Part shown: positions 29,085 to 60,176 of the stretch, piece after piece | Layout of the letters: each line of letters begins with the position of its first letter | How positions within the stretch are numbered: position 1 is the stretch's first letter | Assembly (NCBI GenBank): GCA_030390025.1 | Contig: JASTWF010000335.1 | Location: forward strand, 1 to 64,000 | Direction of reading: 5' to 3' | Length of the DNA: 64,000 nt | Source: Squalus acanthias | Taxonomy: Eukaryota | The notes under the pieces: model-generated | Told to the model about the DNA's origin: nothing | Database searches by the model: none | The model's input: only the letters and a program-made list of their open reading frames with translations | Position numbers and translations under genes: made by a program

Positions 29085-29141
29085 CTGGGAATATCTGGCT
29101 CCCTCGCAATCGTGAGTGAGAAGGACCCAGGCAAAGTGCTG
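29085..29141 (+). CDS. MS4A/CD20-like gene, domain A 57-nt exon (LGISGSLAIVSEKDPGKVL)
   Basis: TTCTCCTTCACAG acceptor, GTGAGT donor, phase 0/0; resembles the MS4A ISGSLSI..EK exon. Confidence 0.85.
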
Positions 29142-29174
29142 GTGAGTAGAGCAAGGAACACTTACACCACACGG

Positions 29175-30130
29175 TCAGAGGGGGCAGTACTGAGGGAGAG
29201 CCGCACTGTCTGAGAGTCAGAACTGAGGGAGCGCTGCACTGTCGGAGGGGCAGTACTGAGGGAGCGCCGCACTGTCTGAGAGTCAGTATTGAGGGAGCGC
29301 TGCACTGTCGGAGGGGCAGTACTGAGGGAGCGCTGCACTGTTGGAGGGGCAGTACTGAGCAAGCGCTGCACTGTCGGAGGGGCAGTACTGAGGGAGCGCC
29401 GCACTGTCGGAGGGGCAGTACTGAGGGAACGTCGCACTGTCAGAGGGGGCAGTACTGAGGGAGCGCCGCACTGTCAGAGGGGGCAGTACTGAGGGAGCGC
29501 TGCACTGTCGGAGGGGCAGTACTGAGGGAGCGCTGCACTGTCGGAGGGGCAGTACTGAGGGAGCGCCGCACTGTCGGAGGGGCAGTACTGAGGGAGCGCT
29601 GCACTGTCGGAGGGGCAGTACTGAGGGAGCGCTGCACTGTTGGAGGGGCAGTACTGAGGGAGCACTGCACTGTCGGAGGGGCAGTAATGAGAGGCGCCGC
29701 ACTGTCGGAGGGGCAGTACTGAGGGAGCGCCGCACTGTTGGAGGGGCAGTACTGAGGGAGCTCTGCACTGTTGGAGGGGCAGTACTGAGGGAGAGCTGCA
29801 CTGTCGGAGGGGCAGTACTGAGGGAGCGCTGCACTGTCGGAGGGGCAGTACTGAGGGAGCGCTGCACTGTCGGAGGGGCAGTACTGAGGGAGCTCTGCAC
29901 TGTTGGAGGGGCAGTACTGAGGGAGCGCTGCACTGTCGGAGGGGCAGTACTGAGGGAGAGCTGCACTGTCGGAGGGGCAGTACTGAGGGAGCGCTGCACT
30001 GTCTGAGGGACAGTACTGAGGGAGCTCTGCACTGTCTGAGGGGCAGTACTGAGGGAGCGCTGCACTCTCGGAGGGGCAGTACTGAGGGAGCACTGCACTG
30101 TCGGAGGGGCAGTACTGAGGGAGAGCTGCA
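29175..30130 (+). repeat. 33-bp SINE-derived minisatellite
   Basis: Direct inspection. Confidence 0.95.
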
Positions 30131-30467
30131 CCGTCAGAGGTGCCGTCTTTCAGATGAGACGCTAAACCAAGGCCCCGTCTGCCCTCTCAGGTGGACGTAA
30201 AAGATCCCACTGCATGATTTCGAAGAGCAGGGGAGTTATCCCCGGTGTCCTGGGCCAAAACCTGTGCCTCGAGCAACATGACAGAAACTGATTATCTGGC
30301 CATTATGACATTGCTGTTTGTGGGAGCTTGCTGTGCGCAAAGTGTCTGCCGCGTTTCCCACAGTACAACAGTGACGACACTCCAAAAGAACTTCATTGGC
30401 TGTAAAGCGCTTTGGGAGGTCCTGAGGTTGTGTAAGGCGCTATATAAATGCAGGTCTTTCTTTCTTT
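30131..30467 (+). mobile_element. DeuSINE-like SINE body with L2-type tail
   Basis: Mirror of 20284-20620. Confidence 0.8.
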
Positions 30468-30583
30468 AACGCCCGCGCGATTGCCAGCTCTTTTGCGCGC
30501 TCACCAGCGTCGACTGCGAACTTCGACCGCGTCGGCGTTCTCCCGCTTACGCCGCTAACGCCCGCGACCTGTCTCTCTTGCAG

Positions 30584-30739
30584 CTGAAAGCCTGCCTGTC
30601 CTGCACCGCCCTGAGTGCCATGGTAACCGGGGTCCAGATGGTCGTCTATTTAGTGGATCTGAACAAGTTCAAGTTTGGCAAAGTTAACTGCCTGTCGGGT
30701 TCCTTTGACTGGGCGTGTTATCGTGCTGCTATGCAACAG
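30584..30739 (+). CDS. MS4A/CD20-like gene, domain A TM3 plus extracellular loop exon
   Basis: CTCTCTTGCAG acceptor with GCTAAC branch point, GTAAGG donor; LKACLSCTALSAMVTGVQMVVYLVDLNKFKFGKVNCLSGSFDWACYRAAMQQ with two loop cysteines. Confidence 0.85.
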
Positions 30740-30848
30740 GTAAGGTACTTCACTAAGGTTAGGTGTCAGCACAGTGGCTCGTACACTCACTCTCTATCTC
30801 TCTCTCTCTCTGGCCTTCTAAATCAAAAGGTTGTGGGTTCGAGCTCCC

Positions 30849-31416
30849 TGCACTGTCGGAGGGGCAGTACTGAGGGAGCACTGCACTGTGGGAGGGGCAG
30901 TACTGAGGGAGCACTGCACCGTGGGAGGGGCAGTACTGAGGGAGCGCCGCACTGTCGGAGGGGCGGTACTGAGGGAGCGCTGCACTGTCGGAGGGGCAGT
31001 ACTGAGGGAGCGCTGCACTGTCGGAGGGGCAGTACTGAGTGAGCTCTGCACTGTCGGAGGGGCAGTACTGAGGGAGCGCTGCACTGTCGGAGGGGCAGTA
31101 CTGAGGGAGTGCTGCACTGTCGGAGGGGCAGTACTGAGGGAGGGCTGCACTGTCGGACAGGCAGTACTGAGGGAGCGCTGCACTGTCGGAGGGACAGTAC
31201 TGAGGGAGTGCTGCACTGTCGGAGGGGCAGTACTGAGGGAGTGCTGCACTGTCGGAGGGGCAGTACTGAGGGAGTGCTGCACTGTCGGAGGGGCAGTACT
31301 GAGGGAGTGCTGCACTGTTGGAGGGGCAGTACTGAGGGAGCGCCGCACTGTCGGAGGGGCAGTACTGAGGGAGAGCCGCACTGTCGGAGGGGCAGTACGG
31401 AGGGAGTGCTGCACTG
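30849..31416 (+). repeat. 33-bp SINE-derived minisatellite
   Basis: Direct inspection. Confidence 0.95.
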
Positions 31417-32034: not shown

Positions 32035-32157
32035 AGGCAGCTGTTTGCTTATGTTCCTGTCTTCTACCTCCTGACGTTTTCTGGGATGATGCTGAGCATC
32101 GTCCTGTCCATCAGTCTCTGTGATTTCCTTCGCTCCTGGAACCCAGAACTGGATCGG
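32035..32157 (+). CDS. MS4A/CD20-like gene, domain A TM4 exon
   Basis: TTTCTTTACAG acceptor, GTAGGA donor, 123 nt, hydrophobic helix followed by Cys. Confidence 0.82.
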
Positions 32158-32215
32158 GTAGGACTGGTTCTCATTCATTTGTTTAAATTGATCAGATTGA
32201 TTGATAGATACATGC

Positions 32216-33679
32216 ACACTGTCCCGTCAAACAATCACAGGGCAGGTACAGCACGGGGTTAGATACAGAGTAAAGCACCCTCTACACTGTCCCATCAAAC
32301 ACTCCCAGGGCAGGTACAGCACGGGGTGAGATACAGAGTAAAGCTCCCTCTATACTGTCCCATCAAACACTCCCAGGGCAGGTACAGCACGGGTTAGATA
32401 CAGAGTAAAGCTCCCTCTACACTGTCCCATCAAACACTCCCAGGGCAGGTACAGCACGGGTTAGATACAGAGTAAAGCTCCCTCTGCACTGTCCCATCAA
32501 ACACTCCCTGGGCAGGTACAGCACGGGTTAGATACAGAGTAAAGCTCCCTCTATACTGTCCCACCAAACACTCCCGGGGCAGGTACAGCACGGGTTAGAT
32601 ACAGAGTAAAGCTCCCTCTACACTGTCCCATCAAACACTCCCAGGGCAGGTACAGCACGGGTTAGATACAGAGTAAAGCTCCCTCTACACTGTCCTGTGA
32701 AACACTCCCAGGGCAGGTACAGCACGGGTTAGATACAGAGTAAAGCTCCCTCTACACTGTCCCATCAAACACTCCCAGGGCAGATACAGCACGGGTTAGA
32801 TACAGAGTAAAGCTCCCTCTACACTGTCCCATCAAACACTCCCAGGGCAGGTACAGCACGGGTTAGATACAGAGTAAAGCTCCCTCTACACTGTCCCATC
32901 AAACACTCCCAGGGCAGGTACAGCACGGGTTAGATACACAGTAAAGCTCGCTCTACACTGTCCCATCGAATACACCCAGGGCAGGTACAGCACGGGGTTA
33001 GATACAGAGTAAAGCTCCCTCTACACTGTCCCATCAAACACTCCCAGGACAGGTACAGCACGGGTTAGATACAGAGCAAAGCTCCCTCTGCACTGTCCCG
33101 TGAAACATTCCCAGGGCTGATACAGCACGGGTTAGATCGAGTAAAGCTCCCTCTACACTGTCCCGTGAAACACTCCCAGGGCTGATACAGCACGGGTTAG
33201 ATACAGAGTAAAGCTCCCTCTACACTCTCCCGTCAAACACTCCCAGGGCAGATACAGCACGGGTTAGATACAGAGTAAAGCTCCCTCTACACTGTCCCGT
33301 CAAACACTCCCAGGGCTGGTACAGCACGGGTTAGATAGAGTAAAGCTCCCTCTACACTGTCCCATCAAACAGTCCCAGGGCAGGTACAGCATGGGGTTAG
33401 ATACAGAGTAAAGCTCCCTCTACACTGTCCCATCAAACACTCCCAGGGCAGGTACAGCACTGGTTAGATACAGAGCAAAGCTCCCTCTACACTGTCCCAT
33501 CAAACACTCCCAGGGCAGGTACAGCACGGGTTAGATACAGAGTAAAGCTCCCTCTACACTGTCCCATCAAACACTCCCAGGGCAGGTACAGCACGGGTTA
33601 GATACACAGTTAAGCTCCCTCTACACTGTCCCATCAAACACTCCCAGGGCAGGTACAGCACGGGTTAGATACAGAGTAA
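32216..33679. repeat. 67-bp minisatellite (mirror of 11218-15115)
   Basis: Direct inspection. Confidence 0.97.
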
Positions 33680-33828
33680 CGCTCTGGATTGTGTCCAGTA
33701 GGGACAGGATTGACTAAGTCCAAGGGAATTTCACAAACTCATCTTGAAGCCATCATTCAGAAGTCTTGGAAGTACATGCTTGTAATTTCAAACAAATATA
33801 TTAGGTGAAAACAAAAGCATCAGGTTTG

Positions 33829-34356
33829 ATGCGGAGATGCCGGTGTTGGACTGGGGTGGACAAATGTGAGAAGTCGCACAACACCAGGTTATAGTCCAAC
33901 AGCTTTATTTGAAATCACAAGCTTTCGGAGCGCTGCTCCTTCCTCAGGTGAAGTGAAGAGATGCATATAGGCACAGCATATATAGTCAGAGAACACTGCC
34001 AGATGACTACAGTTAATCTTTCTAACTGCCCTTTATCACACCTCGGCAGAGATATAATCACGGCAATCACAGGGGTGGATGGTGTCCAAACAGGTCAGTC
34101 AGGAAAACATTACATCAAAGACAATGAGGTGGGGTCGCAAGGGGTCAAATGTGGCAGATGCTGGGGTCGGTATGGAAAACAAAAAACTGTTTTTGCTGGG
34201 AAGATTAACTGTAGTCACCTGGCAGTGTTCTCTGACTATATGTGCTGTGCCTATATGCATCTCTTCACTTCACCTGACGAAGGAGCAACGCTCCGAAAGC
34301 TTGTGATTTCAGATAAAGCGGTTGGACTATAACCTGGCGTTGTGCGACTTCTCACA
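33829..34356 (-). mobile_element. Penelope-like insertion (mirror of 9978-10506), hammerheads at 33915-33951 (-) and 34270-34306 (+)
   Basis: Inverted arms; CATCAGGTTTG on both flanks. Confidence 0.85.
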
Positions 34357-34542
34357 TACATCAGGTTTGGCGGTTGTCGACGAATTTCCTGCCCCCTCTC
34401 TCTCCGGGACTGGATTTGAATCCCGTGTCTCCGAGAACGAAGGTCTCGCCGTGAAAAGGGAGCAGTTTGCGTCCTGCTCCTCGGAGGTGATGTTCGCGCC
34501 TGTCGCGTTTTCTTTTTCACGAGACGATTTGCGCCGCTGCAG

Positions 34543-34722
34543 CCCGTGGGTCCGGAAGGGGCTGGCCTCATCTCCGCGGAACAGGGGAACGCCCCCATCG
34601 AAGAGCCTCGGCCAATCCCAGCACCCGGACCGATGGATCATAGACCAACCAAACCTCTCGGATCCGGCAAGACCTCCCTTCTGGTGGAGAAGTTTCTGGA
34701 AGCACAGCCGAAAATGTTAGGA
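34543..34722 (+). CDS. MS4A/CD20-like gene, linker exon ending in the N-terminal motif of a second CD20 domain
   Basis: CTGCAG acceptor, GGA|GTGAGT donor; ends VEKFLEAQPKMLG (cf. MS4A EKFLKGEPKALG). The acceptor position is less certain than the donor. Confidence 0.78.
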
Positions 34723-34769
34723 GTGAGTTGCCTCTTGTTGTTGTTGTCTTTGGTTTCCGACCACTGATC

Positions 34770-35097: not shown

Positions 35098-38000
35098 CTC
35101 CCTATCTCTGTAACCTCCTCCAGCCCCTACAACCCTCCCTATCTCTGTAACCTCCTCCAGCCCCTACAACCCTCCCTATCTCTGTAACCTCCCCCAGCCC
35201 CTACAACCCTCCCTATCTCTGTAACCTCCTCCAGCCCCACAACCCTCCCTATCTCTGTAACCTCCTCCAGCCCCTACAACCCTCCCTGTCTCTGTAACCT
35301 CCTCCAGCCCTACAACCCTCCCTATCTCTGTAACCTCCTCCAGCCCCTACAACCCTCCCTATCTCTGTAACCTCCTCCAGCCCCTGCAACACTCCCTATC
35401 TCTGTAACCTCCTCCAGCCCCTACAACCCTCCCTATCTCTGTAACCACCTCCAGCCCCTGCAACCCTCCCTATCTCTGTAACCTCCTCCAGCCCCTACAA
35501 CCCTCCCTATCTCTGTAAGCTCCTCCAGCCCCTACAACACTCCCTATCTCTGTAACCTCCTCCAGCCCCTACAACCCTCCCGATCTCTGTAGGCTCCTCC
35601 AGCCCCTACAACACTCCCTATCTCTGTAACCTCCTCCAGCCCCTACAACCCTCCCTATCTCTGTAAGCTCCTCCAGCCCCTACAACACTCCCTATCTCTG
35701 TAACCTCCTCCAGCCCCTACAACCCTCCCGATCTCTGTAATCTCCTCCAGCCCTACAACCCTCCCTATCTCTGTAACCTCCTCCAGCCCTACAACCCTCC
35801 CTATCTCTGTAGGCTCCTCCAGCCCCTACAACACTCCCTATCTCTGTAACCTCCTCCAGCCCCTACAACACTCCCTATCTCTGTAACCTCCTCCAGCCCC
35901 TACAACCCTCCCTATCTCTGTAAGCTCCTCCAGCCCCTACAACACTCCCTATCTCTGTAACCTCCTCCAGCCCCTACAACCCTCCCGATCTCTGTAATCT
36001 CCTCCAGCCCCTACAACACTCCCTATCTCTGTAACCTCCTCCAGCCCCTACAACCCTCCCGATCTCTGTAGCTCCTCCAGCCCCTACAACACTCCCTATC
36101 TCTGTAACCTCCTCCAGCCCCTACAACCCTCCCTATCTCTGTAAGCTCCTCCAGCCCCTACAACACTCCCTATCTCTGTAACCTCCTCCAGCCCCTACAA
36201 CCCTCCCGATCTCTGTAATCTCCTCCAGCCCTACAACCCTCCCCTTCTCTGTAACCTCCTCCAGCCCTACAACCCTCCCTATCTCTGTAACCTCCTCCAG
36301 CCCCTACAACCCTCCCTGTCTCTGTAACCTCCTCCAGCCCTACAACCCTCCCTATCTCTGTAACCTCCTCCAGCCCCTACAACCCTCCCTATCTCTGTAA
36401 CCTCCTCCAGCCCCTGCAACACTCCCTATCTCTGTAACCTCCTCCAGCCCCTACAACCCTCCCTATCTCTGTAACCTCCTCCAGCCCCTGCAACCCTCCC
36501 TATCTCTGTAACCTCCTCCAGCCCCTACAACCCTCCCTGTCTCTGTAACCTCCTCCAGCCCTACAACCCTCCCTATCTCTGTAACCTCCTCCAGCCCCTA
36601 CAACCCTCCCTATCTCTGTAACCTCCTCCAGCCCCTGCAACACTCCCTATCTCTGTAACCTCCTCCAGCCCCTACAACCCTCCCTATCTCTGTAACCACC
36701 TCCAGCCCCTGCAACCCTCCCTATCTCTGTAACCTCCTCCAGCCCCTACAACCCTCCCTATCTCTGAAATCTCCTCCAGCCCTACAACCCTCCCTATCTC
36801 TGTAACCTCCTCCAGCCCCTACAACCCTCCCTATCTCTGTAACCTCCTCCAGCCCCTACAGCCCTCCCTGTCTCTGTAACCTCCTCCAGCCCTACAACCC
36901 TCCCTATCCTGTAACCTCCTCCAGCCCCTACAACCCTCCCTATCTCTGTAACCTCCTCCAGCCCCTGCAACACTCCCTATCTCTGTAACCTCCTCCAGCC
37001 CCTACAACCCTCCCTATCTCTGTAACCTCCTCCAGCCCCTGCAACCCTCCCTATCTCTGTAACCTCCTCCAGCCCCTACAACCCTCCTGTCTCTGTAACC
37101 TCCTCCAGCCCTACAACCCTCCCTATCTCTGTAACCTCCTCCAGCCCTACAACCCTCCCTTTCTCTGTAACCTCCTCCAGCCCCTACAACCCTCCCTATC
37201 TCTGTAACCTCCTCCAGCCCCTGCAACACTCCCTATCTCTGTAACCTCCTCCAGCCCCTACAACCCTCCCTATCTCTGTAACCTCCTCCAGCCCCTACAA
37301 CCCTCCCTATCTCTGTAACCTCCTCCAGCCCCTACAACCCTCCCTATCTCTGTAAGCTCCTCCAGCCCCTACAACCCTCCCTATCTCTGTAACCTCCTCC
37401 AGCCCTACAACCCTCCCTATCTCTGTAACCTCCTCCAGCCCCTACAACCCTCCCTATCTCTGTAACCTCCTCCAGCCCTACAACCCTCCCTATCTCTGTA
37501 ACCTCCTCCAGCCCCTACAACCCTCCCTATCTCTGTAACCTCCTCCAGCCCTACAACCCTCCCTATCTCTGTAACCTCCTCCAGCCCCTACAACCCTCCC
37601 TGTCTCTGTAACCTCCTCCAGCCCTACAACCCTCCCTATCTCTGTAACCTCCTCCAGCCCCTACAACCCTCCCTATCTCTGTAACCTCCTCCAGCCCCTG
37701 CAACACTCCCTATCTCTGTAACCTCCTCCAGCCCCTACAACCCTCCCTATCTCTGTAACCTCCTCCAGCCCCTGCAACCCTCCCTATCTCTGTAACCTCC
37801 TCCAGCCCCTACAACCCTCCCTATCTCTGTAAGCTCCTCCAGCCCCTACAACCCTCCCTATCTCTGTAACCTCCTCCAGCCCCTACAACCCTCCCTATCT
37901 CTGAAATCTCCTCCAGCCCTACAACCCTCCCTATCTCTGTAACCTCCTCCAGCCCCTACAACCCTCCCTATCTCTGTAACCTCCTCCAGCCCCTACAACC

Positions 38001-41000
38001 CTCCCTATCTCTGTAACCTCCTCCAGCCCCTACAACCCTCCCTATCTCTGTAACCTCCTCCAGCCCCTACAACCCTCCCTGTCTCTGTAACCTCCTCCAG
38101 CCCTACAACCCTCCCTATCTCTGTAACCTCCTCCAGCCCCTACAACCCTCCCTATCTCTGTAACCTCCTCCAGCCCCTACAACACTCCCTATCTCTGTAA
38201 CCTCCTCCAGCCCCTACAACCCTCCCTATCTCTGTAACCACCTCCAGCCCCTGCAATCCTCCCTATCTCTGTAACCTCCTCCAGCCCCTACAACCCTCCC
38301 TATCTCTGTAACCTCCTCCAGCCCCTACAACCCTCCCTATCTCTGTAACCACCTCCAGCCCCTGCAACCCTCCCTATCTCTGTAACCTCCTCCAGCCCCT
38401 ACAACCCTCCCTATCTCTGTAACCTCCTCCAGCCCCTACAACCCTCCCTATCTCTGTAACCTCCTCCAGCCCCTACAACCCTCCCGATCTCTGTAATCTC
38501 CTCCAGCCCTACTACCCTCCCTATCTCTGTAACCTCCTCCAGCCCTACAACTTCCCTATCTCTGTAACCTCCTCCAGCCCCTACAACCCTCCCTGTCTCT
38601 GTAACCACCTCCAGCCCTACAACCCTCCCTATCTCTGTAACCTCCTCCAGCCCCTACAACCCTCCCTATCTCTGTAACCTCCTCCAGCCCTTGCAACACT
38701 CCCTATCTCTGTAACCTCCTCCAGCCCCTACAACCCTCCCTATCTCTGTAACCTCCTCCAGCCCCTGCAACCCTCCCTATCTCTGTAACCTCCTCCAGCC
38801 CCTACAACCCTCCCTATCTCTGTAAGCTCCTCCAGCCCCTACAACCTTCCCTATCTCTGTAATCTCCTCCGGCACTACAACCCTCCCTATCTCTGTAACC
38901 TCCTCCAGCCCTACAACCCTCCCTATCTTTGTAACCTCCTCCAGCCCCTACAACCCTCCCTATCTCTGTAACCTCCTCCTGCCCCTAAAACCCACCCTAT
39001 CTCTGTAACCTCATCCAGCCCCGACAACCCTCACTATCTCTGTAACCTCCTCCTGCCCCTAAACCCTCCCTATCTCTGTAACCTCCTCCAGCCCCTGCAA
39101 CCCTCCCTATCTCTGTAACCTCCTCCAGCCCCTACACCCCTCCCGATCTCTGTAAGCTCCTCCAGCCCCTACAACACTCCCTATCTCTGTAACCTCCTCC
39201 AGCCCCTACAACCCTCCCTATCTCTGTAACCTCCTCCATCCCCACAACCCTCCCTATCTCTGTAACCTCCTCCAGCCCCTAAAACCCTCCCTGTCTCTGT
39301 AACTTCCTCCAGCCCTACAACCCTCCCTATCTCTGTAACCTCCTCCAGCCCCTACAACCCTCCCTATCTCTGTAACCTCCTCCAGCCCTACAACCCTCCC
39401 TATCTCTGTAACCTCCTCCAGCCCCTACAACACTCCCTATCTCTGTAACCTCCTCCAGCCCTTACAACCCTCCCTATCTCTGTAACCACCTCCAGCCCCT
39501 GCAACCCTCCCTATCTCTGTAACCTCCTCCAGCCCCTACAACCCTCCCTATCTCTGTAAGCTCCTCCAGCCCCTACAGCACTCCCTATCTCTGTAACCTC
39601 CTCCAGCCCCTACAACCCTCCCGATCTCTGTAATCTCCTCCAGCCCTACAACCCTCCCTATCTCTGTAACCACCTCCAGCCCCTGCAACCCTCCCTATCT
39701 CTGTAACCTCCTCCAGCCCCTGCAACCCTCCCTGTCTCTGTAACCTCCTCCAGCCCTACAACCTTCCCTTTCTCTGTAACCTCCTCCAGCCCCTACAACC
39801 CTCCCTATCTCTGTAACCTCCTCCAGCCCCTGCAACACTCCCTATCTCTGTAACCTCCTCCAGCCCCTACAACCCTCCCTGTCTCTGTAACCTCCTCCAG
39901 CCCCTGCAACCCTCCCTATCACTGTAACCTCCTCCAGCCCCTAGAACCCTCGCTATCTCTGTAACCTCCTCCAGCCCCTACAACCCTCCCTATCTCTGTA
40001 ACCTCCTCCAGCCCCTACAACCCTCCCTATCTCTGTTACCTCCTCCAGCCCCTACAACCCTCCCTATCTCTGTAACCTCCTCCAGCCCTACAACCCTCCC
40101 TATCTCTGTAACCTCCTCCAGCTCCTGCAACCCTCCCTATCTCTGTAACCTCCTCCAGCCCTACAACCCTCCCTATCTCTGTAACCTCCTCCAGCCTCTA
40201 AAACCCTCCCTATCTCTGTAACCTCCTCCAGCTCCGACAACCCTCCCTATCTCTGTAACCTCCTCCAGCCCCTACAACCCTCCCTATCTCTCTAACCTCC
40301 TCCAGTCCCTACAACCCTCACTATCTCTGTAACCTCCTCCTGCCCCTACAACCCTCCCTATCACTGTAACCTCCTCCAGCCACTAGAACCCTCCCTATCT
40401 CTGTAACCTCCTCCAGCCCCTACAACCCTCCCTATCTCTGTAACCTCCTCCAGCCCCTACAACCCTCCCTATCTCTGTTACCTCCTCCAGCCCCTACAAC
40501 CCTTCCTATCTCTGTAACCTCCTCCAGCCCTACAACCCTCCCTATCTCTGTAACCTCCTCCAGCTCCTACAACCCTCCCTATCTCTGTAACCTCCTCCAG
40601 CCCTACAACCCTCCCTATCTCTGTAACCTCCTCCAGCCTCTACAACCCTCCCTATCTCTGTAACCTCCTCCAGCTCCGACAACCCTCCCTATCTCTGTAA
40701 CCTCCTCCAGCCCCTACAACCCTCCCTATCTCTGTAACCTCCTCCAGCCCCTACAACCCTCCCCATCTCTGTAACCTCCTCCAGCCCCTACAACCCTTCC
40801 TATCTCTGTAACCTCCTCCAGCCCTACAACCCTCCCTATCTCTGTAACCTCCTCCAGCTCCTACAACCCTCCCTATCTCTGTAATCTCCTCCAGCCCCGA
40901 CAACCCTCACTATCTCTGTAACCTCCTCCTGCCCCTAAAACCCTCCCTATCTCTGTAACCTCCCCCAGCCCCTACAACCCTCCCTATCTCTGTGACCTCT

Positions 41001-47000: not shown

Positions 47001-50000
47001 AGCCCCTACAACCCTCCCTATCTCTGTAACCTCCTCCAGCCCCTACATCCCTCCCTATCTCTGTAACCTCCTCCAGCTCCTACAACCCTCCCTATCTCTG
47101 TAACCTCCTCCAGCCCTACAACCCTCCCTATCTCTGTAACCTCCTCCAGCCCCTACAATCCTCCCTATCTCTGTAACCTCCTCCAGCCCTACAACCCTCC
47201 CTATCTCTGTAACCTCCTCCAGCCCCTACAACCCTCCCTATCTCTGTAACCTCCTCCAGCCCCTACAGCCCTCCCTATCTCTGTAACCTCCTCCAGCCCC
47301 TACAACCCTCCCTATCTCTGTAACCTCCTCCAGACCTACAACCCTCCCTATCTCTGTAACCTCCTCCAGCCCCTAAAACCCTCCCTATCTCTGTCACCTC
47401 CTCCAGCCCCTGCACCCATCCCTATCTCTGTAACCTCCTCCAGCCCCACATAACCCTCCCTATCTCAGTAACCTCCTCCAGACCCTACAACCCTCCCTAT
47501 CTCTGTAACCTCCTCCAGCCCCGACAACCCTCCCGATCTCTGTAATCTCCTCCAGCCCTACAACCCTCCCTATCTCTGTAACCTCCTCCAGCCCCTACAC
47601 CCCTCCCTATCTCTGTAACGTCCTCCAGCCCCACATAACCCTCCCTATCTCAGTAACCTCCTCCAGACCCTACAACCCTCCCTATCTCTGTAACCTCCTC
47701 CAGCCCCGACAACCCTCCCGATCTCTGTAATCTCCTCCAGCCCTACAACCCTCCCAATCTCTGTAACCTCCTCCAGCCCCTACAACCCTCCCTATCTCTG
47801 TAACCTCCTCCAGCCCCTGCAACACTCCCTATCTCTGTAACCTCCTCCAGCCCCTACAACCGTCCCTATCTCTGTAACCTCCTCCAGCCCCTGCAACCCT
47901 CCCTATCTCTGTAACCTCCTCCAGCCCCTACAACCCTCCCTATCTCTGTAACCTCCTCCAGCCCTACAACCCTCCCTATCTCTGTAACCTCCTCCAGCCC
48001 CTACAACCCTCCCATCTCTGTAACCTCCTCCTGCCCCTACAACCCTCCCTATCTCTGTAACCTCATCCAGCCCCGACAACCCTCCCTATCTCTGTAACCT
48101 CCTCCAGCCCCTACAACCCTCCCTATCACTGTAACCTCCTCCAGCCCCAGAACCCTCCTATCTCTGTAACCTCCTCCAGCCCCTACAACCCTCCCTATCT
48201 CTGTAACCTCCTCCAGCCCCTACAACCCTCCCTATCTCTGTAACCTCCTCCAGCCCCTACAACCCTCCCTATCTCTGTAACCTCCTCCAGCCCTACAACC
48301 CTCCCTATCTCTGTAACCTCCTCCAGCTCCTACAACCCTCCCTATCTCTGTAACCTCCTCCAGCCCTACAACCCTCCCTATCTCTGTAACCTCCTCCAGC
48401 CTCTAAAACCCTCCCTATCTCTGTAACCTCCTCCAGCTCCGACAACCCTCCCTATCTCTGTAACCTCCTCCAGCCCCTACAACCCTCCCTATCTCTCTAA
48501 CCTCCTCCAGTCCCGACAACCCTCACTATCTCTGTAACCTCCTCCTGCCCCTAAAACCCTCCCTATCACTGTAACCTCCTCCAGCCCCTAGAACCCTCCC
48601 TATCTCTGTAACCTCCTCCAGCCCCTACAACACTCCCTATCTCTGTAACCTCCTCCAGCCCCTACAACCCTCCCTATCTCTGTAACCTCCTCCAGCCCCT
48701 ACAACCCTTCCTATCTCTGTAACCTCCTCCAGCCCCTACAACCCTCCCTATCTCTGTAACCTCCTCCAGCCCCGACATCCCTCACTATCTCTGTAACCTC
48801 CTCCTGCCCCTAAAACCCTCCCTATCACTGTAACCTCCTCCAGCCCCTAGAACCCTCCCTATCTCTGTAACCTCCTCCAGCCCCTACAACCCTCCCTATC
48901 TCTGTAACCTCCTCCAGCCCGTACAACCCTCCCTATCTCTGTTACCTCCTCCAGCCCCTACAACCCTTCCTATCTCTGTAACCTCCTCCAGCCCTACAAC
49001 CCTCCCTATCTCTGTAACCTCCTCCAGCTCCTACAACCCTCCCTATCTCTGAAATCTCCTCCAGCCCCGACAACCCTCCCTATCTCTGTAACCTCCTCCT
49101 GCCCCTAAAACCCTCCCTATCTCTGTAACCTCCCCCAGCCCCTACAACCCTCCCTATCTCTGTGACCTCCTCCAGCACCTACAACCCTCCCTATCTCTGT
49201 AACCTCCTCCAGCCACGACAACCCTCACTATCTCTGTAACCTCCTCCAGTCCTACAACCCTCCCTATCTCTGTAACCTCCTCCAGCCCTACAACCCTCCC
49301 TATCTCTGTAACCTCCTCCAGCCCCTACAATCCTCCCTATCTCTGTAACCTCCTCCAGCCCCACAACCCTCCCTATCTCTGTAACCTCCTCCAGACCCTA
49401 CAACCCTCCCTATCTCTGTAACCTCCTCCAGCCCTACAACCCTCCCTATCTCTGTAACCTCCTCCAGCCCCTAAAACCCTCCCTATCTCTGTAACCTCCT
49501 CCAGCCCCTACAACCCTCCCTATCTCTGTAACCTCCTCCAGCCCCTACAACCCTCCCTATCTCTGTAACCTCCTCCAGACCCTACAACCCTCCCTATCTC
49601 TGTAACCTCCTCCAGCCCCTAAAACCCTCCCTATCTCTGTAACCTCCTCCAGCCCTACAACCCTCCCTATCTCTGTAACCTCCTCCAGACCCTACAACCC
49701 TCCCTATCTCTGTAACCTCCTCCAGCCCCTACAACCCTCCCTATCTCTGTAACCTCCTCCAGCCCCTACAACCCTCCCTATCTCTGTAACCTCCTCCAGC
49801 CCTACAACCCTCCCTATCTCTGTAACCTCCTCCAGCCCCTAAAACCCTCCCTATCTCTGTAACCTCCTCCAGCCCCTAAAACCCTCCCTATCTCTGTAAC
49901 CTCCTCCAGACCCAGAACCCTCCCTATCTCTGTAACCTCCTCCAGACCCTACAACCCTCCCTATCTCTGTAACCTCCTCCAGCCCCTAAAACCCTCCCTA

Positions 50001-50297
50001 TCTCTGTAACCTCCTCCAGCCCTACAACCCTCCCTATCTCTGTAACCTCCTCCAGCCCCACAACCCTCCCTATCTCTGTAAACTCCTCCAGCCCCTACAA
50101 CCCTCCCTATCTCTGTAACCTCCTCCAGCCCCACAACCCTCCCTATCTCTGTAACCTCCTCCAGACCCTACAACCCTCCCTATCTCTGTAACCTCCTCCA
50201 GCCCCACAACCCTCCCTATCTCTGTAACCTCCTCCAGCCCCACAACCCTCCCTATCTCTGTAACCTCCTCCAGACCCTACAACCCTCCCTATCTCTG
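35098..50297 (+). repeat. 15.2-kb 36/37-bp L2-derived minisatellite with higher-order blocks
   Basis: (CCCTATCTCTGTAACCTCCTCCAGCCC(C)TACAACCCT)n. Confidence 0.98.
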
Positions 50298-50817: not shown

Positions 50818-52636
50818 ATGGAGAGGGTGAGAGAACGAGCTCATCGCTTCACCGAGCGGGCCTTGGATGCTCTGGTTGGCGCGGTGGAGCGCAGAAGATG
50901 TATACTCTTCCCTGAGAGTGGCAGGAGGCCTTTGCCACGCGAGTACAGAAGAGTGTGGAGGGAGGTGGCTCAGAGCGTCTCCTCCAGGAGCATGGTGCCC
51001 AGGACCCATGTTCAATTCCGCAAAAAGTTCAACGACCTCACTCGGGTCGTCAGGGTGAGTGGCTTTTTCTCAATACCTCTCCATCCCTCCATCTCAACCT
51101 CACTCTATGGCCAGAGGGTCTTAAAACCCCAATGCACAACACTCATCCAACACCTATGGCCCTTTCATGAAACACACACACACATTCCACACTTTGCATA
51201 CAGTAAGGGCTATTCACCTATGGGAGGCACATCAGGCAAGACCATGGCTGCATACAGTAAGGGCTATTCATCTATGGGAGGCACATCAGGCAAGACCATG
51301 GCTGTATATTTACTCAGATGCTGTCCTTTTTCTTGCAGGCCAAGCTGGCGCATAATAGGAGACAGCAGCAATGGACAGGTGGAGGGCGGCCTCAGCTGCA
51401 ACCCCTCAGCGATCTTGAGGAGCGCGTCCACAGGATTGTGGCAAGCCGGTGATCGGTCCCGTCGCCACTGGAGACGCCGACCCCGTTCTGGACAGCAATG
51501 GTAAGGTCATCACCTTTTTGTCCTCTGTCCTTCCACTTGTCCCTCACAACACCAGCCTTTGACACTTTCAATCCAACTTGCTAACTCGCTGCACTTATTC
51601 CTCCCTTACTGCCACCCTGTCCTCACGCTAAAGCCTCTCTTGTACCTCCCTGCTTTCAGATGGTGATTAACCAGCTGAGGAGACGGGCCCTGAAGCTGCC
51701 ACTGGGAGTGAAGCTGCAGCCGAGGAGGAAGAGGAAGCCGGAGCATCAGTGCCACCCTCTCCCGAGGAAGCCCATGCCCATACTGGGAACACGCCTTCCC
51801 TGGAGGGGAGCAGGGGGGAAGGGTCTGATGAGGGTGAAGCTCCAGGACCCAGCGGGCTGCAGCAACGCCATGGGGGTAGGGAAGAACGGGGGCCTTCTCC
51901 CCAGAGGGAGAGTATGCCAGAGACTCCTACTGCAATGGACGCAGAGGAGGAGCGGCTGATCGCAGAAATGAACACCCAGGCGGTGGGCATGCACACTGAG
52001 CTCATGGGTGCAGTGGGAAGGGTGCCCGAATGCATTGAGTCACTGGCAAGGAGTGTGGAGCACTTCGCTGTAGCACAGGCGGATGCCACACTAACGCTTA
52101 GTGCTGCAATTCAGTCACTGACTGCCATGATCCCATCTCTGACTGCTCTCATGCAGACTCAGATTGAGGCCACGCGAGCACTGACTGCTGCCAACCTCGA
52201 TGGTTCGTTCACATGTCCCCGGGGCTCTCACCGCGCCGCAGCAGGCCAGCAATCTGTGCTCCAGCAGATTGCTCCGGATGCTGAAGTGCTGCCCCGTGGG
52301 AGTGCCAGTGTGTCGGGCGAGCAGGGAGTTGCTGTCCTCTCTCACGATGACAGCATTCCTGCTGCCAACACTGTCACTTCTCCACTGCACTTGCCACCGC
52401 CTGTAGGACAGACTGCTGCCGCCCATGCAGAGTTGGTGCAGTCTGCAGCCGGGCCCTCCAGGCCCAGAACTGGTCGAGGCCGTCCTTCAGTGGCATCTGC
52501 AGTGTCAGGGTCTGACGATCAGCAGCCTTCCACCAGCCTTGCTGCAGCCACTGAGGTCCCATTACGGAGGAGCAGTAGGGTTAGAAGGGGGGAAGTGCGC
52601 AAGGGAAGGAGATCACCCTCGAAGGGCAAAAAGTAG
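50818..52636 (+). pseudogene. Harbinger Myb/SANT-like (trihelix) protein gene, 3 exons (50818-51054, 51339-51500, 51660-52636), disrupted
   Basis: RFTERALDALV..VWREVAQSVS..RTHVQFRKKFNDL, then AKLAHNRRQQQWTGGG. Apparent 1-nt frameshift near 51440 and in-frame TAA at 51668. Confidence 0.8.
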
Positions 52637-52948
52637 GAGGTGTGACAAAATGCTGGTCATTTTTTTATTAAAGGCCGAGGTTCGTGGTCCAACTTTTGTT
52701 TAGTGTTTTGGACATTATCTCCAGGTTGTGAGAACCAGTTATGTTATTGACTGTTTTTTTGTGTTTATTTCTATGAGTTTGTCATGAGGAAATGACACAC
52801 ACAGAGTTTGTAAAATAAATAAGTTTTTGTATTCAAAATATACATGTTTGGTGTTTGGAATTATTGGTGCCTTGGCCGGCTTAGGGGTTGCGTGCTGGGT
52901 TCATTGATGTTGTTAGCAATGGCAGAAGCCAAATCCACAGCAGGGGCC

Positions 52949-54100
52949 CTAGAAGCGGCTTGCTATCAGCCGTTGACGGACGGCCCTTGCAGTTTCACCA
53001 TTGTGGGCCGCCCTCCCGCCTTGGTGCTGCTGATGATCATCCTCCTCGTCCTCTTCCTCCTCCTCCTCTGGTGGTGCTCCAAGGCCTGGTGGCATTGGCT
53101 GGGTCCTGACGATTGCCATGTTATGCAACATGCAGCACACAACTACGAAGTTGGATACTCGCTCAGGCGAGTACTGCAGGGCTCCTCCAGAATGGTCGAG
53201 ACAGCGGAACCGTTGCTTCAGCACGTCGATTGTGCGCTCAATAATGTTCCTGGTAGCTTGATGGCTCTCATTGTACCGCAGCTCAGCAGGGGTGTTGGGC
53301 GTATGGAGCGGTGTCATCAGCCAGGTGCTCAATGGATACCCCTTGTCCCCGAGAAGCCAACCAACTGGCTGATGCGGTGCCTCGAAAAGTTCTGCCACAG
53401 TAGTCTGGCGCAGGATAAAAGCATCGTGGCAGCTGCCAGGATAGTGGGCATTGACAGCGAGTATCAGCTGTCTGTGGTCACAGACCAACTGAACATTCAA
53501 GGAATGGAACCCCTTTCTGTTCCGGAATTCCTCGGCATTCTCATGTGGAGCACGCAAAGCCACATGCGTGCAGTCAATGGCGCCCTGCACCATGGGGAAG
53601 CCCGCTATCCTCGCAAAGCCCAGAGCGCGGTCACGCTGCTTGTCTGGGGTCATGGGGAAAGAGATGAACTCTCGTCTCCTTTTAAAGAGGGCATTTGTGA
53701 CCTGCCGGATGCAGCAATGCACCGCGAACTGGGAGATATTGGCGAGGTCCCCAGCAGCAGCTTGAAATGAGCCAGCAGCATAGAAGTTGAGAGCCACTGT
53801 GAACTTCACTGCCACCGACAGAGACGTCCTGGACCTCAGTTGAGGCTGCAGATCTGGCTGCAGCAGGTGGCAGAGCTCAGTGACCACCTCCTTGCTGAAT
53901 CGCAGCCTTCGCAAACACAGCTCCTCAGACATATGAATGTAGGAGAGCTGTTCACGATATACCCTGGGAGGGTAAGCTCTCCTGTACATACGCCTGTTGG
54001 CCCTCCTCCGTCTGGCCATCATTGCCACTCTCTCTCTGCGTCTCTGTGTCCTCCGATTCAGCTGGAGCAGGACGACGCCCCCAATCAGTGCAGACCCCAT
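52949..54100 (-). CDS. Harbinger (HARBI1-like) DDE transposase, 383 aa from ATG 54100
   Basis: GAIDCTHV, NRKGFHSLNVQLVCD, PGSCHDAFIL, LLGDKGYPL, YNESHQATRNIIERTIDVLKQRFRCL; uninterrupted ORF. Confidence 0.95.
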   Translation of the reverse strand: MGSALIGGVVLLQLNRRTQRRRERVAMMARRRRANRRMYRRAYPPRVYREQLSYIHMSEELCLRRLRFSKEVVTELCHLLQPDLQPQLRSRTSLSVAVKFTVALNFYAAGSFQAAAGDLANISQFAVHCCIRQVTNALFKRRREFISFPMTPDKQRDRALGFARIAGFPMVQGAIDCTHVALRAPHENAEEFRNRKGFHSLNVQLVCDHRQLILAVNAHYPGSCHDAFILRQTTVAELFEAPHQPVGWLLGDKGYPLSTWLMTPLHTPNTPAELRYNESHQATRNIIERTIDVLKQRFRCLDHSGGALQYSPERVSNFVVVCCMLHNMAIVRTQPMPPGLGAPPEEEEEEDEEDDHQQHQGGRAAHNGETARAVRQRLIASRF

Positions 54101-55191: not shown

Positions 55192-55302
55192 GTTGTGCAC
55201 ATAGTGCTGGCGCTGTGCCTGATACTCATAACCATGCCGAATCTCATCCTGCTGACTTATGAACAAATAAGACTGAGCATTTTGTGGTGGTTGGTGTTGC
55301 AG
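55192..55302 (+). CDS. MS4A/CD20-like gene, domain B TM1-TM2 exon
   Basis: CTCATTCCCAG acceptor, GTAGGT donor, 111 nt; VVHIVLALCLILITMPNLILLTYEQIRLSILWWLVLQ. Confidence 0.8.
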
Positions 55303-57092: not shown

Positions 57093-58413
57093 AGTGTGGC
57101 GCTCCCTCAGTACTGCCCCTCTGACAGTGCAGCACTCCCTCAGTACTGCCCCTCCGATAGTGCAGCGCTCCCTCAGTACTGCCCCTCCGACAGTGCGGCG
57201 CTCCCTCAGTACTGCCCCTCCCACAGTGCAGCGCTCCCTCAGTACTGCCCCTCCGACAGTGCGGCACTCCCTCAGTACTGCCCCTCCGACAGTGCAGCGC
57301 TCCCTCAGTACTGCCCCTCCGACAGTGCAGCGCTCCCTCAGTACTGCCCCTCCCACAGTGCAGCGCTCCCTCAGTACTGCCCCTCCGACAGTGCAGCGCT
57401 CCCTCAGTACTGCCCCTCCGACAGTGCAGCGCTCCCTCAGTACTGCCCCTCCGACAGTGCGGCGCTCCCTCAGTACTGCCCCTCCCCCAGTGCGGCGCTC
57501 CCTCAGTACTGCCCCTGCGACAGTGCGGCACTCCCTCAGTACTGCCCCTCCCACAGAGCAGCGCTCCCTCAGTACTGCCCCTCCGACAGTGCGGCACTCC
57601 CTCAGTACTGCCCCTCCGACAGTGCAGCGCTCCCTCAGTACTGCCCCTCCCACAGTGCAGCGCTCCCTCAGTACTGCCCCTCCGACAGTGCAGCGCTCCC
57701 TCAGTACTGCCCCTCCGACAGTGCAGCGCTCCCTCAGTACTGCCCCTCCGACAGTGCGGCTCTCCCTCAGTACTGCCCCCTCCGACAGTGCAGCGCTCCC
57801 TCAGTACTGCCCCTCCGACAGTGCAGCGCTCCCTCAGTACTCCCCCTCCAACAGTGCAGCGCTCCCTCAGTACTGCCCCTCCGACAGTGCGGCTCTCCCT
57901 CAGTACTGCCCCCTCCGACAGTGCAGCGCTCCCTCAGTACTGACCCTCCGACAGTGCAGCGCTCCCTCAGTACTGCCCCTCCGACAGTGCGGCGCTCCCT
58001 CAGTACTGCCCCTCCGACAGTGCAGCACTCCCTCACTACTACTCCTCCGACAGTGCGGCGCTCCCTCATTACTGCCCCTCCGATAGTGCAGCACTCCCTC
58101 AGTACTGCCCCTCCGACAGTGCAGCGCTCCCTCAGTACTACCCCTCCGACAGTGCGGCGCACCCACACTACTGCCCCTCCAACAGTGCAGCGCTCCCTTA
58201 GTACTGCCCCTCCGACAGTGCAGCGCTCCCTCAGTACTACCCCTCCGACAGTGCAGCGCTACCTCAGTACTGCCCCTCCGACAGTGCAGCGCTCCCTCAG
58301 TACTGCCCCTCCGACAGTGCAGCGCTCCCTCAGTACTGCCCCTCCCACAGTGCAGCGCTCCCTCAGTACTGCCCCTCTGACAGTGCAGCGCTCCCTCAGT
58401 ACTGCCCCTCCGA
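57093..58413 (-). repeat. 33-bp SINE-derived minisatellite (independent copy)
   Basis: Direct inspection. Confidence 0.97.
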
Positions 58414-58544
58414 CGTTTTAGCTAGTTTAACCCTTTTCCCACGTGAAGCACGCCTGATCTGAAACACGCCAGTGAAACCTGGCGGGAGCACAAGTGGATA
58501 GCTGACTATCAGCTGCAGGTCCACTATTACAACGGAGATGTGAT

Positions 58545-59358
58545 GAAGGTAGTAGTAGTTATCGGCCCCCAAACAGTAGTTGTAATGTAGGGCAGAGTAT
58601 AAATCAGGAAATTAGAGGTGCATGTAACAAGGTCATCCAGTAATCATGGGGGACTTTAAGCTACATGTAGACTGGGCAAACCAAATTTGCAGTAATAGTG
58701 TGGAGGACAAATTCATGGAATGAATGCAAGATAGTTTTCTAGATCAGTATGTTGAGGAACCAACTGGGGAACAGGCTATTTTAGATCTAGTATTGTGCAA
58801 CGAGAAAGGGTTAATTAATAACCTTGTAGTAAAGGGGCCTTTAGGGAAGAGTGATCATAATATGATAGAATTTTATATTGAGTTTGCAAGTGACTTAATT
58901 AAATCCGAAACTAGGGTCTTAAATCTAAACAAAGCAAACTACGTAGGTATGAGGGGCGAGTTGGCTAAGGTAGATTGGGAAACTACATTAAAAGGTATGA
59001 TGGTAGACAAGCAATGGCGAGCATTTAAAGAATTAATACATAATTTACAACAAATATACATTCCTGTAAGGCACAAAAACCCCACAGGAAAAGTGGTCCA
59101 ACCGTGGCTAACAAGAGAAATTAAAGAAAGTATTAGATCAAAGGAAGAGGCTTATAATGTTGCCAAAAAGAGCAGTAAGCCTGAGGATCGGGAGGATTTT
59201 AGAATTCAGCAAAGGAGGACCAAGAAATTGATAAAGGAAGGGAAAATAGAATATGAGAGTAAACTAGCGAGAGACATAAAAACAGACTGTAAAAGCTTCT
59301 ATAGGTGTGTAAAAAGGAAAAGATTAGCGAAAGTAAATGTGGGTCCCTTACAGGCAGG
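58545..59358 (+). mobile_element. CR1 LINE ORF2 internal fragment (APE endonuclease end and linker)
   Basis: FLDQYVEEPT..ILDLVLCNE..LGKSDHNMIEF..PWLTREIK..KSFYR. Confidence 0.9.
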
Positions 59359-59544
59359 AGATAAGGTGGGGGAGCATTCCATGTGAGATCAGAGCAGAGG
59401 GTGAGGCCAGGAATATCAGTGGATGGGTGAGGAATTGGGGGAGGAACCACGAGAGAGAGGGGGGGGGAATCTGTCAATTGGGTTGGTCACACTCAGATGT
59501 TGGATTGACGTGAAGCAATTGGTCAGAATCAGGCCTCAGTGGGT

Positions 59545-60050
59545 TTTATTTAATGCATTCATTCATGGGATTTGGGCGTCGCTGGCGAGGCCGGTATTTA
59601 TTGCCCATTCCCGACTTGCCCCTTGAGAAGGTGGTGGTGAGCCGCCTTCTTGAACCGCTGCAGTCCGTGTGGTGAAGGTGCTCCCGCAGTGCTGTTACTT
59701 CGGGGAGTTCCAGCGTTTGGACCCAGCGACGATGAAGGAACGGCCGACACACGACCAAGTCAGGATTGGTGTGTGACTCGGAGGAGGGGAACTTGGAGGT
59801 GGTGGTGTTCCCATTGCGCCTGCTGCCCTTGTCCTTCTAGGTGGAAGAGTTCGTGGGTTTGGGAGGTGCTGCCGAAGAAGCCTTGGCGAGTTGCTGCAGT
59901 GCATCTTTGTAGATGGTACACACTGCAGCCACGGTACGCCGGTGGTGGAGGGAGTGAATGTTTAAGGTGGTGGATGGGGTGCCAATCAAGCGGGCTGCTT
60001 TGTCCTGGATGGTGTCGAGCTTCTTGAGTGTTGGAGCTGCAGTGCATCTT
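59545..60050 (-). mobile_element. CR1-group LINE 3' fragment (second family)
   Basis: TLKKLDTIQDKAARLIG..LNIHSLHHRRTVAAVCTIYK. Confidence 0.8.
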
Positions 60051-60119
60051 GTAGATTGGTGACTCTTACCACCAGTGCATGTGTGTCGTATCCTCTCACT
60101 GTGTCTCTTACGCTTGCAG

Positions 60120-60176
60120 TGTATCGCATCGGGTGTCTTGTCCATCGCAGCTGAAGACAGACCAAGCATCAACATG
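60120..60176 (+). CDS. MS4A/CD20-like gene, domain B 57-nt exon (CIASGVLSIAAEDRPSINM)
   Basis: CGCTTGCAG acceptor, GTAAGA donor; same length, phase and motif as 29085-29141. Confidence 0.85.

What the first reader, a model, noticed from the sequence alone, without database searches (positions are those of the whole stretch)
29085..60176. Hidden spliced gene predicted to encode a tandem (two or more domain) MS4A/CD20-like protein
Seen: six GT-AG exons (57, 156, 123, 180, 111, 57 nt), all phase 0, join into a stop-free 228-aa frame: LGISGSLAIVSEKDPGKVL / LKACLSC..C..C..QQ / TM4..ELDR / PVGPEG..VEKFLEAQPKMLG / VVHIVLAL..WWLVLQ / CIASGVLSIAAEDRPSINM. Known: typical MS4A genes have one tetraspan domain, with the exon order FLKGEPKxLG, TM1-2, short ISGSL exon, TM3-loop, TM4, then a terminal exon with a stop. 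Here the exon after TM4 has no stop, ends in a fresh KFLxxxPKxLG motif with a GTGAGT donor, and the exon series restarts with a diverged second domain. Inference: a covalently concatenated 8-TM (or longer) MS4A, possibly a fixed hetero-oligomer of a family that normally oligomerises.
Basis: partly seen in the sequence, partly recalled or inferred. Interest (0 to 1): 0.8.

Follow-up and report, generated by a model that had tools for sequence, protein, structure and literature searches.

The report
Shark double-length MS4A membrane protein
A real spliced shark gene joins two different CD20-like four-helix membrane domains into one predicted eight-pass protein, conserved in other sharks and a ray, which likely acts as a built-in two-subunit pair; such double MS4A genes were already reported from chicken, opossum and platypus, but not from fish.

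Summary
Confirmed. The six GT-AG, phase-0 exons are exactly as stated. Contigs from two studies' runs (guessed RNA) join 32157 to 34543 and 34722 to 55192 in one record. The gene runs beyond the window: exons 1-2 lie on contig C2523 and exons 9-11 at C2617:64.9-73.1 kb. The model has 410 aa, 8 hydrophobic segments and two MS4A domains, then a stop. It aligns end to end with unnamed RefSeq/UniRef models from horn shark (241/417, two Pfam CD20 stretches), sawshark, catshark and an electric ray. A second two-domain paralog is predicted in this genome. The internal ATG is not conserved (1 of 8 linkers). The halves form separate old clades, so fusion of two different neighbours is as likely as internal duplication. 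Packing of the halves as a fixed heterodimer is inferred and untested. Tandem MS4A genes are known (Zuccolo 2010, 'not in fish'), so this is a new member of a known kind.

The parts
29085..29141 (+). Exon 3: domain 1, end of TM2 (ISGSL exon). Exons 1-2 lie outside the window on G000:C2523 (6718-6578 and 1474-1364, minus strand), whose next intron overlaps window 26369-26456 at 97.7%.
30584..30739 (+). Exon 4: domain 1, TM3 and large extracellular loop with a Cys pair (model residues 139, 148)
32035..32157 (+). Exon 5: domain 1, TM4; no stop, phase-0 donor
32158..34542 (+). Intron between the domains (2385 nt, of which 1.47 kb is tandem repeat); no AATAAA/ATTAAA, no terminal-exon-like candidate among 4 acceptors scored
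34543..34722 (+). Exon 6: 60-residue proline-rich linker ending in the pre-TM1 motif of domain 2; in-frame ATG at 34633 not conserved
55192..55302 (+). Exon 7: domain 2, TM1-TM2
60120..60176 (+). Exon 8: domain 2, end of TM2 (SGVLS exon). Exons 9-11 lie beyond the window at G000:C2617:64911-65024, 71990-72109 and 73085-73147 (stop).
9612..22525 (-). Near-identical inverted copy of exons 3-6 (22525-22469, 20168-20013, 15296-15174, 9791-9612): 8 differences in 516 coding nt (4 silent, 4 replacement), splice sites intact; recent inverted duplicate or unpurged haplotype
26169..26368 (.). 200-N scaffold gap; separates the inverted copy from the + strand gene and cuts off exons 1-2

Best explanation
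It is a spliced shark gene in which two diverged MS4A/CD20-type domains are joined in one reading frame by a 60-residue proline-rich linker, predicted to give an eight-pass membrane protein that likely works as a built-in, fixed heterodimer of two different MS4A subunits. Shown: the exons, four splice junctions including both sides of the linker, one open frame, two MS4A domains, and conservation of the arrangement in other sharks and a ray. Inferred: the linker is cytoplasmic and flexible, since an even number of helices per half keeps both halves in the same orientation, as the subunits of an MS4A dimer would be. The two four-helix bundles would then pack side by side, fixing 1:1 stoichiometry and partner identity for a family that oligomerises. 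With no ITAM or ITIM and no tyrosine in the tails or linker, it likely acts as a membrane organiser or partner subunit of other receptors or channels, not as a kinase-docking chain. Inferred origin: two neighbouring MS4A genes of a cluster fused before sharks and rays split, and the fused gene then duplicated into paralogs A (this gene) and B.
For: Junctions: X1 and X5 contigs (2 studies, 2 of 183 nt differ from the window) cover only 34542-34724, with loose ends equal to the end of exon 5 and the start of exon 7. The X5 record (886 nt) also holds exon 3 at the exact offset, and X9 (1437 nt, about 88% alike) holds exon 3 and the linker in frame, 24 nt longer. Flanking intron bins have zero cover in both lays. 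No intronless copy came up among the genome hits. Model: 410 aa with no internal stop and 8 segments with KD19 of at least 1.7; two profile hits. Orthologs: horn shark XP_067915907.1, 241/417 identical including the exons I predicted blind; Pristiophorus 270/419, Scyliorhinus 211/409, Narcine 159/379, each with two profile hits. A 43-row tree gives domain-1 (100/97) and domain-2 (100/99) clades, each with ray inside A and paralog B outside. The ortholog model has 4+4 helices and a low-confidence linker. Domain 2 matches FceRI-beta (Z 14.8, rmsd 3.4, 142 aligned) and CD20 (Z 11.9). Domain 1 matches FceRI-beta by sequence, E 5e-8. CD20 occurs as homodimers and tetramers (PMC7271567, passage), and Zuccolo et al. 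read tandem genes as a sign of dimer-based function.
Against: No protein-level or single-molecule evidence. The runs are only guessed to be RNA and are assembled contigs, which show local adjacency, not full-length transcripts. In 2 of the 4 runs laid (X9, X11) the upstream loose end is too diverged to call as exon 5 by letter match, and 1 of 4 runs (X12) laid nothing. Junctions after exon 7 and exon 1 to 2 are not seen, and the exon 1 and exon 9 donors score weakly (-2.3, 0.4). The fold models are modest (pTM 0.52 and 0.49), Foldseek gives no hit at E <= 0.001, and domain 1's best structural rows are TARP-type bundles (Z 12.3). A 60-residue disordered linker does not force contact between the halves. 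A Hemiscyllium isoform model lacks the linker exon (P0016), and a horn shark isoform model starts inside domain 1 (P0012), so products may vary. The sawshark ortholog of paralog B's second half is annotated as a stand-alone 211-aa protein (P0020).
Confidence: 0.7

Rival explanations
1. The fusion is real but the halves act as beads on a string: each domain pairs in trans with other MS4A chains or receptors, and the linker only tethers them, for example to cross-link complexes into larger arrays.
For: The linker is long, low-confidence in both models and variable in length among orthologs. FceRI-beta, the closest solved relative, is solved as a subunit of the IgE receptor (entry titles). The halves are only 34/167 identical.
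Against: The same two partners, in the same order, are kept in 7 genera and both paralogs. Invariant residues across 5 full-length orthologs are spread over both halves and the linker (31/149, 16/60, 35/134).
Confidence: 0.23
2. Two adjacent single-domain genes with read-through transcripts: gene 1 ends after exon 5 and gene 2 starts at the ATG at 34633.
For: There is an in-frame ATG 30 codons before the exon 6 donor, also unchanged in X9. P0020 is annotated as a second half only, starting at a Met in the linker. Contigs cannot show transcript ends.
Against: The ATG is present at that place in 1 of 8 linkers and two linkers have no Met at all. The 30 codons before it are as conserved as those after (17/30 each against horn shark; paralog differences by codon position 3/10/12). 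There is no polyA signal or terminal exon in the 2385-nt intron, nor in paralog B's 703-nt intron, which is mostly GA repeat. No laid contig showed another 5' partner for exon 6.
Confidence: 0.05
3. Assembly or gene-model artefact, or a dead recent duplicate.
For: The region is fragmented, with 6 gaps in C2617, pieces on small contigs and near-identical inverted copies.
Against: Exons 3-11 lie in one gap-free piece (26369-115496). Independent run contigs and 7 other genera show the same join.
Confidence: 0.02

Closest known systems
RefSeq/UniRef gene models of elasmobranchs: XP_067915907.1 (Heterodontus francisci), UniRef100_UPI00398E75BF (Pristiophorus japonicus), XP_072354173.1 (Scyliorhinus torazame), XP_069797004.1 (Narcine bancroftii), XP_060709462.1 (Hemiscyllium), XP_072420843.1 (Chiloscyllium punctatum), XP_048476702.1 (Rhincodon typus)
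   Same: Orthologs: same two domains and order; same linker except in the Hemiscyllium isoform. The four full-length ones are 42-64% identical to the window model.
   Different: Named 'uncharacterized' or 'FceRI-beta-like'; no paper on them found. The window gene's linker is about 8 residues shorter than the sawshark's. The Chiloscyllium and Rhincodon models lose most or part of domain 2.
Tandem MS4A genes of chicken, opossum and platypus (Zuccolo et al. 2010, PMC2826416)
   Same: Two MS4A units in one frame; one platypus gene also joins unlike units (MS4A1-like plus MS4A3-like); same dimer interpretation.
   Different: In the section and passages I read, the support is genomic clones, and the authors state such genes were not found in fish or amphibians. 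Here there is spliced-contig support and conservation across sharks and a ray. Orthology to those genes was not tested; independent origin is likely but inferred.
FceRI-beta (MS4A2) and CD20 (MS4A1), Pfam PF04103
   Same: Each half matches by sequence or fold; Cys pair in the large extracellular loop of each half.
   Different: Single-domain proteins. The shark protein has no ITAM or ITIM (the ITAM of FceRI-beta is recalled, not from a call).
MLC1 (modulator of VRAC current 1)
   Same: Eight predicted TM built as a 4+4 structural repeat whose interface is proposed to matter for folding (PMC9144339, passages); MLC1 clusters appear among Atlas look-alikes.
   Different: 29 of 30 feature hits are CD20 clusters, and no MLC1 family hit came up in the Pfam scan. 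An architectural analogue or a distant relative, not an ortholog as far as tested.

Membership tests
MS4A / CD20-like (PF04103) | Profile hit above the family cut-off | tested here: met
   Ortholog P0013 scores 54.9 bits with 2 stretches, cut-off 27.9. The window model gives two hits to a profile of 12 other shark MS4A sequences. Single exons give no Pfam CD20 hit (0 of 6; 0 of 4). Pfam itself was not run on the spliced window peptide.
MS4A / CD20-like (PF04103) | Four membrane helices per unit | tested here: met
   8 hydrophobic segments, 4 per half; 4+4 helices in the ortholog model.
MS4A / CD20-like (PF04103) | N- and C-termini cytoplasmic | not testable with these tools
   Inferred from homology (CD20 topology: PMC7271567 passage).
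MS4A / CD20-like (PF04103) | Pre-TM1 PKxLG-type motif, SGxL motif in TM2 and all-phase-0 exon series (about 114/57/114/120 nt); motif names recalled | tested here: met
   Both halves have them; four neighbouring MS4A units on C2617 have 114/57/114/93-126 nt exons.
MS4A / CD20-like (PF04103) | Fold like FceRI-beta / CD20, domain 2 | tested here: met
   VIA Z 14.8 (8k7t_B) and 11.9 (6y90_A), residues 245-387; Foldseek top ranks are FceRI-beta but E > 0.001.
MS4A / CD20-like (PF04103) | Fold like FceRI-beta / CD20, domain 1 | tested here: inconclusive
   Only one alignment is shown per chain. Rows covering residues 36-195 are TARP-type four-helix bundles, Z up to 12.3. The sequence match to 8y81_B is E 5e-8.
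Tandem MS4A (Zuccolo 2010) | Two or more MS4A sequences in one open frame | tested here: met
Tandem MS4A (Zuccolo 2010) | Orthology to the chicken, opossum or platypus genes | not tested
   Those sequences were not identified among the hits; the paper's supplements (Table S1, Fig. S3) were not opened.
FceRI-beta (MS4A2), the name on some ortholog models | C-terminal ITAM (recalled) | tested here: not met
   No ITAM or ITIM pattern in gene A, P0013 or paralog B; no Tyr in the tails or linker of A.
MLC1 | Sequence membership of Membrane_MLC1 (PF27925) | tested here: inconclusive
   Not listed in the Pfam scan, but I did not check that this library copy holds the family. Atlas structure row is under the naming bar, TM 0.34/0.40.
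MS4A oligomers | Subunits pack as a dimer | not tested

The most novel reading that the evidence does not exclude
An elasmobranch lineage of obligate single-chain MS4A heterodimers, fixed before sharks and rays split and kept in two paralogs, with an optional linker exon that changes the geometry between the halves. It would be a natural, transcript-supported template for how two different MS4A subunits pair and whether the pair forms a pore or a ligand site.
Probability: 0.35. Interest if true: 0.65.

Novelty: new member of a known kind. Interest (0 to 1): 0.4.

Why it matters
How MS4A proteins (CD20, FceRI-beta, MS4A4A/6A, the necklace chemoreceptors) pair and what the pairs do is unsettled. 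In the section I read, the earlier tandem genes rested on genomic clones, and neighbouring genes are easily merged by gene predictors. This gene is spliced across the join and conserved in 7 elasmobranch genera. It contradicts the 2010 statement that fish lack tandem MS4A genes and places a tandem gene in the earliest-branching group known to have MS4A genes. A single chain with two defined, different halves is a convenient object for solving a hetero-pair structure and for split-and-complement tests. It is not a new kind of system, and its orthologs already exist as database models.

Tried and rejected
Pfam on single exons: no CD20 hit for any of the 10 exons of this gene or the 3 paralog exons scanned, while 4 of 5 neighbour TM1-2 exons hit. 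A genome-wide PF04103 search missed this gene. A word-index protein search with the linker found nothing (38 candidates, none at E <= 10). A PDB sequence search with the TM1-2 alignment gave only a designed repeat protein and noise. The run search was dominated by repeats (shares 0.14-0.37), no holder is on record as RNA, and 6 of 24 runs were laid; X12 laid nothing. Complex prediction of the two halves was not available, so there is no verdict. A third domain was rejected: a stop exon follows exon 10, no further linker-type exon was found up to 118.8 kb, and ortholog ends agree. Internal duplication as the origin: a 15-row tree put both halves together (97/95), but the 43-row tree did not, and the constraint is neither shown nor rejected (p-AU 0.38). 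In that tree the row labelled HetB_d1 is in fact the single-domain horn shark protein P0021, mislabelled by me, and it was inside the tested set. It is sister to the domain-1 clade (96/85). The tree held a random draw of at most 30 single-domain hits; rows without my anchor motif were dropped (43 rows remained). Haplotig reading of the inverted copy: first favoured (the X5 contig mixes alleles of both copies), then weakened because exons 10-11 also have an inverted 98.5-99.5% copy at C2617:107959-112871 inside the same gap-free piece, with no mirror symmetry in between; left open at about 60:40 for a real duplicate. The idea that the four minus-strand units at C2617:225-392 kb form one long concatemer was not supported: no convincing linker exons were found and their orthologs are single-domain models. 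Literature: 10 searches; only PMC2826416 holds 'tandem MS4A', and subscription journals are not covered.
Full report
Observation. All six exons are at the stated places, AG/GT-flanked, phase 0 and stop-free. The window is G000:C2617:1-64000, the start of a 532,512-base scaffold in a 3.7-Gb genome. The protein tree puts the gene nearest the sawshark ortholog (92/69 and 97/78), so the source is a shark; I did not identify it further. A chance control among 14 splice-scored candidates separates the real exons (E 3e-6 or better against the ortholog) from the rest (E 2.2 or worse).

Splicing across the join. I laid four runs on the linker exon with its flanks. In X1 and X5, from two studies and 2 letters different from the window in 183, one contig covers exactly 34542-34724. 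Its upstream loose end is window 32127-32156, the end of the TM4 exon, and its downstream loose end is the start of exon 55192 (compared by eye). X9 (20 other letters in 174) covers the exon and joins the same downstream exon. X11 covers 60 bases at about 83%. On exon 29085, X5 and X9 gave contigs of the same lengths (886 and 1437 nt) with loose ends leading to exon 30584 and to an exon absent from the window; X2 gave the downstream join only; X12 gave nothing. In X5 the distance from exon 3 to exon 6 is 336 nt, exactly 57+156+123; in X9 it is 360, in frame. The runs are only guessed to be RNA, but the contigs stop at the splice sites, intron bins have no cover, and no intronless copy appeared in genome searches. 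Contigs do not prove full-length molecules.

Full gene. The missing upstream exon occurs once in the genome, on contig C2523, whose next intron overlaps the first 88 bases after the window's gap at 97.7%. C2523 also holds an ATG exon. Downstream of the window lie TM3 (64911-65024), TM4 (71990-72109) and a stop exon at 73085. The 11 exons give 410 residues with 8 hydrophobic segments. The halves are 34/167 identical, with a local score of 105 against 33 +/- 5 for 500 shuffles. A profile from 12 other shark MS4A sequences hits residues 40-130 and 246-386 (48.6 and 42.6 bits; best shuffled domain 7.7 in 1000 shuffles). Exons 1, 9, 10 and 11 were predicted before the ortholog was found and then matched it at 31/47, 17/38, 21/40 and 10/20.

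Relatives. Exon 4 found a horn shark model whose long isoform, XP_067915907.1 (414 aa), is 241/417 identical to the model and has two Pfam CD20 stretches. A search of 1.84 billion representatives gave 183 hits at E <= 0.001 and 8 at E <= 1e-30. All 8 are elasmobranch: Heterodontus, Pristiophorus (2), Scyliorhinus, Hemiscyllium, Chiloscyllium, Rhincodon and the ray Narcine. I named 20 of the other 149 listed hits; none of the named ones is a chimaera, which is weak evidence of absence. Ten long hits with 2-3 stretches are models from a frog, lizards and teleosts; I did not test whether they are real, but they show that multi-unit MS4A models are common in databases. This genome also holds a diverged paralog B, pieced together from C2442, C2228 and C1905 in exon order: 352 stop-free residues, 145 identical to gene A, two profile hits, and a 703-nt intron at the join. 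Its continuity across contigs and its splicing are predicted only, and its sawshark counterpart is annotated as a second half alone (P0020).

One gene or two. The ATG at 34633 is found at that place in 1 of 8 linkers, and two linkers have no Met; X9 keeps it. The 30 codons upstream are as conserved as those downstream. Neither intron at the join has a polyA signal or a terminal-exon-like candidate. The two-gene reading is unlikely (0.05).

Origin. Domain 1 and domain 2 each form a strong clade containing A, its orthologs including the ray, and B as the outer branch. So the two-unit arrangement is older than the A/B duplication, which is older than the shark-ray split (roughly 250-300 million years, recalled). 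A small tree joined the two halves, but the larger one did not, and a single-domain horn shark gene (P0021) is sister to domain 1 (96/85). One origin of both halves is neither shown nor rejected (p-AU 0.38, with P0021 inside the tested set). Fusion of two different neighbours is my preferred reading. As a speculation, exon 6 opens like an MS4A terminal exon and closes like an N-terminal exon, as if a deletion had removed the first gene's stop and the second gene's start (alignment; not tested).

How it works. AlphaFold models of the two horn shark isoforms, used as stand-ins, show four helices per complete half and a low-confidence linker (mean pLDDT 68 and 66, pTM 0.52 and 0.49). Domain 2 matches FceRI-beta (Z 14.8) and CD20 (Z 11.9); domain 1 matches FceRI-beta by sequence (E 5e-8), but its listed structural rows are TARP-type bundles. 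Each half keeps a Cys pair in the large outer loop; there is no ITAM, ITIM or N-glycosylation sequon in gene A. CD20 forms homodimers and tetramers (PMC7271567, passage), and MS4A6D homodimers are reported (PMC11663944, passage). I therefore infer a covalently fixed heterodimer acting as an organiser or partner subunit.

The inverted copy. Window 9.2-24.4 kb mirrors 27.2-35.1 kb at 97.5-98.3%, with 8 coding differences in 516 nt. Exon 1 and exons 10-11 are also present twice. Exons 2 and 9 were found once genome-wide, and exons 7 and 8 once on C2617. The second copy of exons 10-11 lies in the same gap-free piece, tail to tail, which favours a real recent duplicate; allele mixing in the X5 contig fits either reading. 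This does not affect the main result.

What is known. Zuccolo et al. [quoted passage not shown] It is the only paper holding 'tandem MS4A'. Searches on sharks, chondrichthyans and elasmobranchs listed no paper on this gene by title or abstract start (listings only, apart from PMC2826416 and passages of PMC7776563). MLC1 is an 8-TM 4+4 repeat protein (PMC9144339, passages) and appears as a distant look-alike. Earlier notes of this scan concern pyrin-MS4A fusions, not this gene.

Verdict. Real, spliced, conserved and correctly read by the first stage. It is a new member of a known kind, already present as unnamed gene models, and adds spliced-contig support and a much older lineage. Interest 0.4.

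Noticed in passing
window 50818-54100: Harbinger-like DNA transposon in intron 6: intact 383-aa DDE_Tnp_4 ORF (52949-54100, minus; E 7.5e-40) facing a Myb/SANT-like ORF from 50818 (E 4e-10); a 95-96% copy lies at C2617:514-517 kb. No clear terminal inverted repeat found.
   Followed up: partly
G000:C2617:118841-172591 (+) and 392254-225724 (-): Five more MS4A units on the same scaffold; orthologs of three are single-domain models in other sharks. The whale shark model XP_048476703.1 appears to merge exons of two of them.
   Followed up: partly
G000:C2617:430379-430239 (-): Second copy of exon 1 (6 differences in 141 nt) with no exon 2 after it in continuous sequence: an orphan piece or a mis-join.
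   Followed up: partly
G000:C2617:107959-112871 (-): Inverted 98.5-99.5% copy of exons 10-11 in the same gap-free piece as the gene.
   Followed up: partly
G000:C2442, C2228, C1905 (L073, L017-L018, L074): Paralog B: a second predicted two-domain MS4A gene, 41% identical to gene A, on three small contigs.
   Followed up: yes
P0016, P0012: Database isoform models: Hemiscyllium X2 skips the linker exon in frame; horn shark X2 starts inside TM2 of domain 1.
   Followed up: no
window 1-9235 and 35098-50297; L010:2300-5000: Very long tandem arrays (9 and 15 kb) fill intron 6 in both copies; a retroelement-like insert with a reverse-transcriptase-like frame lies just after the stop exon (read by eye).
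   Followed up: no
G000:C5:5.56-5.78 Mb, C10:80.28-80.31 Mb, C1, C2, C19: Other PF04103 hits in the genome, most below the cut-off.
   Followed up: no
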